Part shown: piece by piece, positions 16,301 to 19,300 of the stretch
Layout: each line of letters opens with the position of its first letter
How positions within the stretch are numbered: position 1 is the first letter of the stretch
Assembly (NCBI RefSeq): GCF_058153355.1
Contig: NZ_CM177019.1
Direction: 5' to 3' (one strand)
DNA: 64,000 bases
Program-made: the position numbers

Positions 16301-19300
16301 GATCCTCTGGTCGCTGTTCCCGCACCATCGTTACCTACTGGATACCGATTTCACTGTTAATGATGAACTGGTAAAAACAGGTTACGCCGTGAAGCCGATT
16401 GCCGGTCGCTGTGGCAGCAATATCGACCTTGTCAGCCATCATGAAGAGGTGCTGGACAAAACCAGCGGTAAATTTGCCGAGCAGAAAAACATTTACCAGC
16501 AACTGTGGTGCTTGCCGAAAGTGGACGGTAAATACATCCAGGTATGTACTTTCACCGTTGGCGGCAACTACGGCGGTACTTGCTTGCGCGGTGATGAATC
16601 ACTGGTCATCAAAAAAGAGAGTGATATTGAACCGTTAATTGTCGTGAAAGAGTAATAGATGTTGTAGCAGCCCCGTACTGATTATGAAGAATAATCAGTA
16701 CGGGGAATAATTAAAATATTCAATATTTATATATTTCAATGTCTATTCATTTTATATGTGAATATATTAACCAGCAGAATACCTGTGTTCTAATTATTTT
16801 TAAATATTTTGAATGAATGCTTATTGTCTGATACACAAGAAATAACTCACTTTTTATTGTTAAAAGATGATATTTCACTTTGCCCACGCCGTGAAAGTCA
16901 CTGATAATGCGTCCGTTCGTAAATTCAAAATGGCGTAATCTAATATATGCTAAATTTATTTGTTGGCCTTGATATATACACAGGGCTTTTGTTATTACTT
17001 GCTCTGGCATTTGTGTTGTTCTACGAAGCAATCAATGGTTTTCATGACACGGCGAATGCGGTGGCAACCGTTATTTATACTCGTGCCATGCAGCCACAGC
17101 TTGCCGTGGTGATGGCGGCATTTTTTAACTTTTTTGGCGTATTGCTAGGCGGACTTAGCGTTGCCTATGCCATTGTCCATATGTTGCCAACCGATTTGTT
17201 GCTGAATATGGGGTCAACTCACGGCCTGGCGATGGTCTTTTCCATGCTGCTGGCGGCGATTATCTGGAACCTGGGAACGTGGTTCTTTGGTTTACCGGCC
17301 TCCAGTTCGCATACCTTGATTGGTGCGATTATCGGCATCGGTTTAACCAACGCGCTGTTAACCGGCTCATCGGTGATGGATGCGTTAAACCTGCGTGAAG
17401 TGACTAAAATTTTCTCCTCGCTGATTGTTTCCCCTATCGTCGGCCTGGTCATTGCGGGAGGCCTGATATTCCTGCTGCGCCGCTACTGGAGCGGGACGAA
17501 AAAGCGTGACCGTATTCACCGCATTCCGGAAGATCGCAAAAAGAAAAAAGGCAAACGTAAGCCACCATTCTGGACGCGTATTGCGCTGATTGTTTCCGCT
17601 GCGGGCGTGGCGTTTTCGCACGGCGCGAACGACGGGCAGAAAGGGATCGGCCTGGTGATGCTGGTACTGGTGGGGATTGCTCCTGCTGGTTTCGTCGTCA
17701 ATATGAATGCGTCCGGCTATGAAATTACCCGTACCCGCGATGCCGTCACCAACTTTGAACACTATCTGCAACAGCATCCTGAACTGCCGCAGAAGTTGAT
17801 TGCGATGGAACCTCCATTGCCTGCGGCATCGACTGATGGCACGCAAGTAACGGAGTTTCATTGTCATCCGGCAAATACCTTTGATGCGATTGCGCGCGTT
17901 AAAACGATGTTGCCAGGTAATATGGAAAGCTACGAGCCGTTAAGCGTGAGTCAGCGCAGCCAGCTGCGCCGCATTATGCTGTGCATCTCTGATACCTCTG
18001 CGAAGCTGGCGAAACTGCCAGGCGTCAGTAAAGAAGATCAGAACCTGCTGAAAAAACTGCGCAGCGATATGTTAAGCACCATTGAGTACGCTCCGGTGTG
18101 GATCATCATGGCGGTAGCACTGGCGCTCGGCATTGGCACCATGATTGGCTGGCGTCGTGTAGCGATGACCATCGGTGAGAAGATTGGTAAGCGCGGCATG
18201 ACGTATGCGCAAGGCATGGCGGCACAAATGACGGCGGCAGTGTCTATCGGCCTTGCCAGTTATATTGGGATGCCCGTCTCCACAACGCACGTCCTCTCGT
18301 CTGCGGTAGCAGGGACGATGGTGGTGGACGGCGGTGGGTTACAGCGTAAAACGGTAACCAGCATCCTGATGGCGTGGGTGTTTACTTTACCGGCGGCGAT
18401 TTTTCTGTCTGGTGGGTTGTACTGGATAGCATTGCAGTGGATTTAACCTTCCTGAAAATGCCCGGTCCTGGCGATCGGGCATTTCCATTTTTGACTAGTG
18501 ATAACCACACGCGGTCATAAAATCCGTAATCGCTTTTTCTGCATCAACCAGCACCTTTTCCAGTGGCTGATTGGCGTCGATATCAACCAGTTGTGCACCA
18601 CCAAAGGTTAACTGTGGCGTTATGGCAATCTTTCTCGCCAGCGATTCCCGTTTATGGTCGGGTTTACGCGCGCAGGCAACTTCAAGGTCAACATTGAGTT
18701 TGATGACCAGATCAGGCTTATGGCTCGCCATCCAGTGAAATGCTTTACGTTCCTGGCTTGCCAGCCATGAGACAAACCAGCCGCCTTCAACGTTAGGTGG
18801 GAACACCGTACCATCGTAAGCGCCAGGAATTTGGTCCTGAGGATAACGATCGGTTAAGACAATCAGCCCGCGACGACGACAGGCGAGCATATGACGAAAG
18901 CGTAACAGTCGGCGGGCGACGAAAGCGGTGATCACCAGGGCCGGAACCGGACCCGGCAATTTTTTTGCCGTTTTCACTTCATTTTTTTCAATAGTCTTGT
19001 GCAGAGACTTTCCCATCAACGGTAATTTTGTCACTGCACGACCGACATTTCCGGCCTGTTTTCCTAAATGAACTCTTTCGGCAGCACCATATTTTTCGAC
19101 AACGGTAATAAGATGTTCACACACCGTTGACTTGCCTGAACCATCGCTACCAATAACGGCAATTAATGGAGGTGTTATTGACTGCATGAATATATCCTTA
19201 AATTTAAATATCCATCCAAAATATTTATTTGGTTAATATGTTTTTATGAAAGCGTAATTCAGGTCAATGTCACAATTAACCATTGTCACAATAAGGTTGA

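What the first reader, a model, noticed from the sequence alone, without database searches (positions are those of the whole stretch)
19267..19292. Direct repeat 'tgtcacaat' in the divergent yghT/yghS promoter region
Two copies of 'tgtcacaat' (19268-19276 and 19284-19292) spaced 16 bp lie in the AT-rich region between the divergent paralogs. This may be a shared regulator site.
Basis: seen in the sequence. Interest (0 to 1): 0.2.

Follow-up and report, generated by a model that had tools for sequence, protein, structure and literature searches.

The report
Repeat overlapping the yghS promoter
The two copies of TGTCACAAT are real, but the downstream copy is mostly the -35 box of an ordinary, evolutionarily conserved promoter for the E. 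coli gene yghS, the upstream copy is only half conserved, and nothing shows that the pair is a shared regulator site.

Summary
The window is E. coli. TGTCACAAT sits exactly at 19268-19276 and 19284-19292, in the 173-bp spacer between yghT (- strand) and yghS (+ strand). On its own the repeat is not unusual: the window holds 10 close direct repeats of at least 9 nt, against about 5 expected by chance.

Twelve orthologous yghT/yghS spacers from other Enterobacterales show what is under constraint. Copy 2 contains TTGTCA, which lies 17 bp upstream of TATTCT. This pair is the only sigma-70-like site the scan found. It is kept at the same distance from the yghS start in Escherichia, Hafnia, Citrobacter amalonaticus, Pseudocitrobacter and Shimwellia, while the spacer between the hexamers varies.

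Copy 1 keeps only its 3' part (ACAAT or ACAWT). Its TGT varies between genera and occasionally within E. coli. Serratia, Pantoea, Rahnella, Erwinia and Kosakonia have no repeat and use a different promoter.

Best reading: a yghS core promoter plus a partial upstream duplicate. An operator for an unknown dimeric regulator (ACAAT-N5-ATTGT, overlapping the -35) is not excluded. No known factor consensus fits and the island encodes no regulator. I found no transcription-start data. Interest is low.

The parts
19268..19276 (+). Copy 1 of TGTCACAAT. Only its 3' part (C)ACAAT is conserved outside Escherichia.
   Evidence: Ortholog comparison. Natural E. coli variants TATCACAAT and TACCACAAT.
19284..19292 (+). 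Copy 2 of TGTCACAAT. It overlaps the -35 hexamer.
   Evidence: TTGTCAC is invariant in all 8 aligned lineages of the E. coli-like group; two of these were retrieved with a pattern that required ATTGTCAC.
19283..19288 (+). Putative -35 hexamer TTGTCA of yghS promoter P1 (5 of 6 to consensus).
   Evidence: Only promoter-like hit in 19050-19500. Conserved with 17-bp (16 in Shimwellia) spacing in 6 protein-anchored lineages.
19306..19311 (+). Putative -10 hexamer TATTCT of yghS promoter P1 (4 of 6, with A2 and T6).
   Evidence: It ends 47-51 nt before the yghS start codon in every lineage that has P1.
19312..19319 (+). Conserved GAGCAC block and the inferred start region for P1 (start predicted near 19317-19319).
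   Evidence: Conservation. The start position is inferred from the usual -10-to-start distance and was not measured.
19272..19286 (.). 15-bp inverted repeat ACAATTAACCATTGT (ACAAT-N5-ATTGT), spanning copy 1's 3' end and copy 2's 5' flank. Candidate operator or upstream promoter contact.
   Evidence: Unique in the window at up to 1 mismatch. Both arms are kept with a variable centre (AC, GG, GT, CC) in Escherichia, Hafnia and C. amalonaticus; the left arm is degenerate elsewhere.
19282..19292 (.). Perfect 11-bp palindrome ATTGT-C-ACAAT (copy 2). Copy 1 is the imperfect version AATGT-C-ACAAT at 19266-19276.
19326..19337 (+). Conserved block TAATATTCAATA. It aligns with the TACAAT -10 of the promoter used by distant orthologs. 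In E. coli it reads TTCAAT and lacks the key A at position 2, so it is a weak or relic promoter P2.
19207..19236 (-). Best yghT-facing promoter candidate: TTAACC (reverse complement of 19231-19236), 18 bp, GATATT (reverse complement of 19207-19212). It scores 8 of 12; E. albertii has TTGACC-18-GATATT at the same place.
   Evidence: Consensus match only.
19361..20074 (+). yghS coding sequence (GTG start), the gene served by P1.
   Evidence: The GTGAGTCAA start context is conserved in orthologs.
18495..19187 (-). yghT coding sequence, the divergent paralog.

Best explanation
The repeat is not one functional unit. Copy 2 (with the T before it) carries TTGTCA, the -35 hexamer of a sigma-70 promoter (P1) whose -10 hexamer is TATTCT, 17 bp downstream. 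RNA polymerase would start near 19317-19319 and transcribe yghS, and probably yghR and yghQ, through a leader of about 43 nt.

Copy 1 is a partial upstream duplicate of the same 16-bp segment. Only its ACAAT end, at about -46 to -42, is under constraint. That end either contributes upstream promoter contacts or acts as a half-site. The exact 9-bp identity of the two copies is a lineage-specific feature of E. coli.

In K-12 the promoter is reported as part of the H-NS regulon, and yghS rises when SlyA is overexpressed.

Shown: the sequence, the consensus match, and the cross-genus conservation of hexamers and spacing. Inferred: that P1 fires, where it starts, and what the ACAAT element does.
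For: - TTGTCA-17-TATTCT is the only sigma-70-like site in 19050-19500 on either strand.
- Loci were fetched through the YghS protein, so they are unbiased with respect to the DNA motif.
- In those loci the same two hexamers recur with 17-bp spacing (16 in Shimwellia) and end 47-51 nt before the start codon. This holds in E. coli, E. albertii, Hafnia, C. amalonaticus, Pseudocitrobacter and Shimwellia.
- The spacer between the hexamers is only about 55-60% identical, while the hexamers are 5/5 and 6/6 identical.
- Sequence further upstream than about 19271 is unalignable between genera.
- Copy 1's TGT is the least conserved part, at 4-5 of 8 lineages per column. It also varies in rare E. coli strains.
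- Within E. coli the yghS-proximal half of the spacer is far less polymorphic than the yghT-proximal half: 4510/4678 and 4628/4630 identical against 1279/4533.
- yghS alone rose 3.1-fold on SlyA overexpression and is listed in the H-NS regulon (PMC5797941). That fits an independently firing, silenced promoter just upstream of yghS.
Against: - No experimental transcription start was found. The supplements of four transcription-start-site mapping papers and one promoter reporter-assay preprint held nothing on yghS.
- One promoter-like hit in 450 bp is no more than shuffles give (1.4 +/- 1.0), so the case rests on conservation.
- The conserved ATATTCTGA block can also be aligned with the -35 region (TTGAAC) of the TACAAT promoter used by Serratia, Pantoea and Erwinia. 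Part of its conservation may therefore reflect a second promoter, P2.
- Conservation of ACAAT just upstream of the -35 is not explained by hexamer function and would also fit a bound protein.
- Pluralibacter lacks a recognisable P1.
Confidence: 0.55

Rival explanations
1. The site is an operator for an unidentified dimeric helix-turn-helix regulator. The protein would bind the 15-bp inverted repeat ACAAT-N5-ATTGT (19272-19286), or the two 11-bp palindromes ATTGT-C-ACAAT set 16 bp apart. Because the site overlaps the -35, binding would repress yghS. This is compatible with P1 being real.
For: - Both arms are conserved and the centre is variable (AC, GG, GT, CC) in Escherichia, Hafnia and C. amalonaticus.
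- Conservation reaches about 10 bp beyond the -35 hexamer.
- The same pentamers form the operator consensus of the MocR/GntR-type repressor EnuR, ATTGT-N6-ACAAT, whose sites also overlap -35 and -10 elements (PMC8739950).
- The repeat segment is nearly invariant in about 4,500 E. coli genomes.
Against: - The left arm degenerates without compensating change: ACATT, ATATT, CCATT, ACAAA in four lineages. The right arm is fixed anyway by its -35 role, so palindromy itself is not demonstrably selected.
- The island encodes no regulator.
- No second site exists in the 64-kb window, including upstream of the other island operons.
- The spacing differs from EnuR (N5 or N1 against N6).
- No recalled E. 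coli factor consensus fits better than shuffles.
Confidence: 0.22
2. The two direct copies are a shared regulator site that coordinates both divergent genes, yghT and yghS.
For: - The repeat lies between the two genes, 81-105 bp from the yghT start codon and 69-93 bp from the yghS start codon.
- A weak FlhDC genomic-SELEX (in vitro binding-site selection) peak was assigned to the yghS/yghT spacer (PMC9962212).
Against: - The exact repeat is confined to E. coli and its cryptic clades, and copy 1's TGT varies.
- The yghT-proximal half of the spacer is not alignable between genera.
- The best yghT promoter candidate lies 35-60 bp away.
- A 16-bp spacing puts the copies on opposite faces of the helix, unlike known direct-repeat binders.
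- The FlhDC motif proposed in that paper lies inside the yghT coding sequence, not at the repeat.
Confidence: 0.08
3. The working promoter is P2, with its -10 in the conserved TAATATTCAAT block at 19326-19336. The repeat would then lie at about -55 and -71 as an upstream activator site or UP-like element.
For: The TACAAT block, 26-28 nt before the start codon and paired with a good TTGAAC, TTGATA or TTGAAG -35, is the only promoter shared by Serratia, Pantoea, Rahnella and Erwinia. It aligns with the E. coli block.
Against: In E. coli and E. albertii the hexamer is TTCAAT, with no A at position 2. The matching -35 is CTGAGC or TTCTGA, with 15-17 bp spacing. This did not pass the scan even at 8 of 12.
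Confidence: 0.1
4. The site is a two-component response-regulator site such as a pho box (pitB is next door), or a CRP site.
For: TGTCAC resembles the pho-box heptamer CTGTCAT, and TCACA is a CRP half-site (recalled consensus sequences).
Against: - Pho boxes and other OmpR/PhoB-family sites repeat every 10-11 bp; here the spacing is 16 bp.
- The best pho-box match has 7 of 18 mismatches.
- The best CRP match has 3 of 10 mismatches.
- Neither is better than shuffles.
Confidence: 0.02

Closest known systems
Sigma-70 housekeeping promoter (TTGACA, 17 bp, TATAAT)
   Same: TTGTCA and TATTCT match 9 of 12 positions, with optimal 17-bp spacing and the A2 and T6 of the -10 present. The site has the correct orientation and distance for yghS. 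The hexamers are conserved while the spacer varies.
   Different: No mapped start site. The promoter is not listed in any source I could read. Conservation extends about 10 bp upstream of the -35.
GntR-superfamily operators, e.g. EnuR ATTGT-N6-ACAAT (PMC8739950)
   Same: Identical pentamer half-sites ATTGT and ACAAT in inverted orientation. The site overlaps a -35 element, as reported for EnuR sites.
   Different: The arm spacing is N5 (ACAAT...ATTGT) or N1 (ATTGT.ACAAT), not N6. No cognate regulator is encoded in the island. No binding data exist.
H-NS-silenced, SlyA-responsive promoters of acquired genes
   Same: yghS is listed in the H-NS regulon and rises 3.1-fold on SlyA overexpression (PMC5797941). 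The spacer is AT-rich.
   Different: No SlyA-like site at the repeat: the best match has 5 of 12 mismatches. The island's overall G+C is about 50%, which is not atypical.
OmpR/PhoB-family direct-repeat sites (pho box)
   Same: Direct repeat of a TGTCA-containing word, next to a phosphate-transporter gene.
   Different: 16-bp rather than 10-11-bp periodicity, and a poor match to the consensus.

Membership tests
Sigma-70 promoter | A -35 hexamer close to TTGACA | tested here: met
   TTGTCA at 19283-19288, 5 of 6.
Sigma-70 promoter | A -10 hexamer close to TATAAT, with A at position 2 and T at position 6 | tested here: met
   TATTCT at 19306-19311, 4 of 6 with A2 and T6.
Sigma-70 promoter | Spacer of 17 +/- 1 bp, kept in orthologs | tested here: met
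   17 bp in five genera and 16 bp in Shimwellia.
Sigma-70 promoter | Hexamers conserved more than spacer and flanks | tested here: met
   Hexamers 5/5 and 6/6 against 7-8 of 13 in the spacer for Hafnia and Pseudocitrobacter.
Sigma-70 promoter | An experimentally mapped transcription start 6-8 nt after the -10 | not testable with these tools
   No start-site entry for yghS in the supplements I could read.
Dimeric helix-turn-helix operator (GntR or Cro type) | Inverted repeat with conserved arms and a variable centre | tested here: inconclusive
   ACAAT-N5-ATTGT is kept in 3 clades. The left arm is degenerate in 4 lineages, and the right arm is confounded with the -35.
Dimeric helix-turn-helix operator (GntR or Cro type) | A cognate regulator gene linked to the site | tested here: not met
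   No DNA-binding domain in the five island proteins scanned with Pfam — YghT, YghS, YghR, the 274-aa protein and YghO. None of the remaining genes between pitB and yghO is annotated as a regulator, and neighbouring glcC belongs to the glycolate operon.
Dimeric helix-turn-helix operator (GntR or Cro type) | Further copies of the motif in front of co-regulated genes | tested here: not met
   No other hit at up to 1 mismatch in the 64-kb window. The whole genome was not searchable.
OmpR/PhoB-type direct-repeat site (pho box) | Direct repeats with 10-11 bp periodicity | tested here: not met
   The spacing is 16 bp.
OmpR/PhoB-type direct-repeat site (pho box) | Match to CTGTCATAWAWCTGTCAY | tested here: not met
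   7 of 18 mismatches; 45% of shuffles do as well.
CRP site | TGTGA-N6-TCACA | tested here: not met
   Best match has 3 of 10 mismatches; 18% of shuffles do as well.
Known structured RNA | Rfam match or stable fold | tested here: not met
   Best Rfam hits are far below gathering scores. Fold z-score is 0.16.

The most novel reading that the evidence does not exclude
The conserved ACAWT-N5-ATTGT element overlapping the yghS -35 is the operator of a still unidentified, unlinked repressor, perhaps of the GntR superfamily. This repressor would switch on the three P-loop kinase paralogs YghT, YghS and YghR, and the flippase-like YghQ, which sit beside the enterobacterial sphingolipid (spt/acpR/aasR/epi/yghO) genes. 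It would be the first handle on how that lipid pathway is regulated in E. coli.
Probability: 0.15. Interest if true: 0.35.

Novelty: new member of a known kind. Interest (0 to 1): 0.12.

Why it matters
It matters little by itself. It would add one plausible, conserved sigma-70 promoter to the map of a poorly studied E. coli locus. It also shows that a short repeat which looks like a factor site is mostly promoter hexamer plus chance.

The modest value lies in context. yghS, yghR and yghQ flank the recently recognised enterobacterial dihydroceramide gene set, whose regulation is unknown. A defined promoter and a candidate operator give a concrete starting point for reporter and pull-down experiments.

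Tried and rejected
- **Known factor consensus sequences.** I scored CRP, FNR, PhoB, SlyA, DnaA, LexA, Fur, ArcA, MlrA, CusR/HprR, RcsAB, PhoP, CpxR and the phage 434 operator (all recalled from memory) against 19250-19310. None beat shuffles.
- **Tandem duplication.** Tandem Repeats Finder found nothing. The two 16-bp units are only 12 of 16 identical by eye.
- **RNA element.** There is no Rfam hit and no stable fold.
- **Regulator in the island.** Pfam and NCBIfam found no DNA-binding domain in YghT, YghS, YghR, the 274-aa protein or YghO.
- **FlhDC.** The genomic-SELEX peak is weak, and the motif the authors propose lies inside yghT, not at the repeat.
- **Sigma-54, sigma-E and sigma-S readings of the conserved blocks.** I considered these by eye and dropped them for lack of the paired element.
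- **Start-site data.** The Cappable-seq GTF file is truncated before 3.1 Mb. The Kim 2012, in vitro run-off transcription/RNA-seq (ROSE), Shigella M90T and promoter reporter-assay supplements do not mention yghS, yghT or yghR. One guessed PMC id was not held.
- **Literature search for the 9-mers.** It returned only unrelated primer sequences.
- **Genome-wide motif search in E. coli.** This was not possible.
- **Bias caveat.** The metagenome scan used a pattern that required ATTGTCAC...ATATTCT...CAC. Its hits are informative for copy 1 but cannot count as evidence that P1 is conserved.

Full report
**Locus.** The window is Escherichia coli. It is 100% identical over 271 bp to strain WB61 and 98.5% identical to K-12 MG1655. 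The finding lies in the 173-bp spacer (19188-19360) between yghT (18495-19187, - strand) and yghS (19361-20074, + strand, GTG start). pitB lies to the left, and yghR and yghQ lie to the right. The spacer is present in 4,692 of 5,426 complete E. coli genomes, almost always once per genome.

**Observation.** TGTCACAAT is at 19268-19276 and 19284-19292, the only two copies in the window. The copies extend to CAATGTCACAAT and CATTGTCACAAT.
- Read differently, copy 2 is a perfect 11-bp palindrome, ATTGT-C-ACAAT. Copy 1 is an imperfect one, AATGT-C-ACAAT.
- The end of copy 1 and the start of copy 2 form a third inverted repeat, ACAAT-TAACC-ATTGT (19272-19286).
- Statistically the repeat is unremarkable. 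8 of 100 shuffles give at least two copies of the word.
- The window has 10 close direct repeats of at least 9 nt, where first-order Markov simulations give 5.1 +/- 2.3.
- Tandem Repeats Finder reports nothing.
- By inference, the chance of such a repeat in this particular 173-bp spacer is about 1-2%. Over all the non-coding DNA of a 64-kb window it is of order one half.

**Promoter scan.** The only sigma-70-like site between 19050 and 19500, on either strand, is TTGTCA (19283-19288), 17 bp, TATTCT (19306-11). It faces yghS and matches 9 of 12 positions. One hit is what shuffles give (1.4 +/- 1.0), so the scan alone proves nothing. It does place the -35 hexamer inside copy 2.

**Orthologs fetched through the protein.** These loci are unbiased with respect to the DNA motif.
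- A species-level genome scan with YghS found Escherichia cryptic clades, Hafnia paralvei and distant beta- and gammaproteobacterial genomes assembled from metagenomes. The distant ones lack the divergent gene arrangement.
- A protein search showed many Enterobacterales orthologs at 63-90% identity.
- I fetched their loci: E. albertii, Kosakonia, Pseudocitrobacter, C. amalonaticus, Serratia marcescens, Shimwellia, Erwinia endophytica, Pantoea cypripedii, Pluralibacter, Rahnella, a Hafnia-like group, and an E. coli strain with a yghS/yghR hybrid gene.
- All keep the divergent yghT/yghS pair.

**What is conserved.**
- In the cryptic Escherichia clades both copies are intact.
- In E. albertii, copy 1 is TGCCACAAT and the centre of the inverted repeat changes from AC to GG.
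- In Hafnia, C. amalonaticus, Pseudocitrobacter and Shimwellia the spacer cannot be aligned to the left of about 19271.
- From 19271 rightward, discrete blocks survive. These are ACAWTTAnnC, then ATTGTCAC, then a variable 14-15 bp, then ATATTCT followed by nnGCAC, then TAATATACAATA, and finally the start-codon context.
- TTGTCA and TATTCT (TATCCT in Shimwellia) keep 17-bp spacing (16 in Shimwellia) and end 47-51 nt before the start codon in six lineages.
- The DNA between the hexamers is only about 55-60% identical. This is the classic signature of a working promoter.
- Pluralibacter lacks a recognisable P1.
- Copy 1 fares worse. It reads AGCCACAAT (Hafnia), AGCCACATT (second Hafnia-like group), AACGACAAT (C. 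amalonaticus), TTGATATTT and GGCCATTTA (the two Pseudocitrobacter-like groups) and AGTCACAAA (Shimwellia).
- Its TGT columns are the least conserved of the element, at 4-5 of 8 lineages. ACAAT is kept in three clades and is degenerate in the rest.
- Serratia, Pantoea, Rahnella, Erwinia and Kosakonia have no repeat. They use a different, well-formed promoter (TTGAAC, TTGATA or TTGAAG, then 16-18 bp, then TACAAT) that ends 26-28 nt before the start.
- The E. coli block TAATATTCAATA (19326-19337) aligns with that -10. It has lost the A at position 2 and has no acceptable -35, so I treat it as a weak or relic promoter, P2.

**Metagenome scan.** The pattern ATTGTCAC-N15-ATATTCT-N3-CAC gave 80 hits and 31 distinct sequences. 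This pattern forces P1, so the hits count only for copy 1.
- E. coli-like contigs occur with TATCACAAT and TACCACAAT in place of copy 1.
- Two further diverged lineages were recovered.
- About a dozen hits are unrelated chance matches, roughly as expected for 18 specified bases.

**Variation within E. coli.**
- The 45-nt segment holding both copies is identical in 4,510 of 4,678 genomes.
- The -10 and leader segment is identical in 4,628 of 4,630.
- A 45-nt control from the yghT-proximal half is identical in only 1,279 of 4,533.
- The TATCACAAT variant is in 4 complete genomes, and the TACCACAAT variant in at most 6.
- This agrees with constraint on the yghS-proximal half. It rests on few independent mutations, so I give it little weight.

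**Other tests.**
- No other ACAAT-N5-ATTGT or ATTGTCACAAT occurs at up to 1 mismatch in the window, including upstream of the other island operons.
- There is no Rfam family and no RNA structure.
- No recalled factor consensus fits better than shuffles.
- The 16-bp spacing is incompatible with the 10-11-bp periodicity of OmpR/PhoB-type sites.
- No DNA-binding domain was found in the island proteins scanned (YghT, YghS, YghR, the 274-aa protein, YghO), and none of the island's other genes is annotated as a regulator.

**Literature.**
- yghS alone rose 3.1-fold when SlyA was overexpressed and is listed in the H-NS regulon (PMC5797941).
- A weak FlhDC genomic-SELEX (in vitro binding-site selection) peak is assigned to the spacer, but the proposed motif lies inside yghT (PMC9962212).
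- The MocR/GntR repressor EnuR has the operator consensus ATTGT-N6-ACAAT, and its sites overlap -35 and -10 elements (PMC8739950). The pentamers are the same as here, but the spacing differs.
- I could not find any mapped start site for yghS.

**Interpretation.**
- Most likely (about 0.55), copy 2 is conserved because it contains the -35 hexamer of the yghS promoter P1. Copy 1 is a partial upstream duplicate whose exact identity to copy 2 is specific to E. coli.
- The conserved ACAAT upstream of the -35 is the one feature that a bare promoter does not explain.
- It may be an upstream polymerase contact, or the distal half-site of an operator for an unknown dimeric regulator, which would repress by occluding the -35 (about 0.2).

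**Verdict.** It marks an ordinary, previously undocumented promoter element rather than a new kind of regulatory site. It is a new member of a known kind, and its interest is low.

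Noticed in passing
window 20909-31453: An intact gene cluster lies downstream of yghT, yghS and yghR. It holds yghQ (Wzx-like flippase), a 274-aa protein with no family hit, a YtfJ-family protein and LptF/LptG paralogs. 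On the - strand come spt (serine palmitoyltransferase), a dedicated acyl carrier protein, an epimerase/dehydrogenase and an acyl-AMP ligase, followed by yghO. PMC9386255 lists the E. coli BL21 homologs (ECD_02850-54) as the dihydroceramide gene set. In K-12 an IS5 truncates yghQ.
   Followed up: partly
window 18495-20863; loci L016, L019, L022: The three P-loop paralogs YghT, YghS and YghR are annotated 'dTMP kinase' in RefSeq. They score only 25-31 bits against the dTMP kinase model, whose cut-off is 83 bits. They have no solved relative beyond a P-loop match. In Kosakonia, Serratia and Pantoea they sit directly beside epi-acpR-spt. They are unrelated to the Caulobacter ceramide kinase CpgB, which is diacylglycerol-kinase-like. 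They may be lipid or head-group kinases of the sphingolipid pathway.
   Followed up: partly
locus L025 3001-3738: One E. coli assembly has a single 245-aa gene between yghT and yghQ where yghS and yghR normally lie. It is about 75% identical to YghS and looks like a recombinant yghS/yghR hybrid.
   Followed up: no
window 19323-19331 and 19369-19377: A second exact 9-nt direct repeat, ACGTAATAT, has one copy in the yghS leader and one just inside the coding sequence, 46 bp apart. The leader copy overlaps the conserved TAATAT block.
   Followed up: no
loci L016, L021, L022, L024 (yghT-proximal spacer): Kosakonia, Erwinia, Pantoea and Rahnella share AAAAGTCGC about 55-65 bp upstream of yghT. On the yghT strand this reads GCGACT/ACGACT, 17 bp, TATATT/TAAAAT, a candidate yghT promoter. 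It is absent from E. coli.
   Followed up: no
loci L018 and L026, reverse strand of copy 2: In Hafnia and C. amalonaticus the reverse complement of TGTCAC (GTGACA) sits 17 bp upstream of TATTTT or TAGTAT. The same palindrome could therefore serve as a -35 for a divergent, yghT-facing promoter. E. coli has no matching -10.
   Followed up: partly
window about 12297-13612 (L014 13148-14463): An IS3-family transposase pseudogene lies between hybG and yghU in the strain identical to the window.
   Followed up: no
window 372, 18893, 28586, 31635, 35987, 39665, 45721, 48893, 55576: Nine other close direct repeats of 9-10 nt at 11-30 bp spacing. Together with the finding they number about twice the chance expectation. 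None was examined.
   Followed up: no
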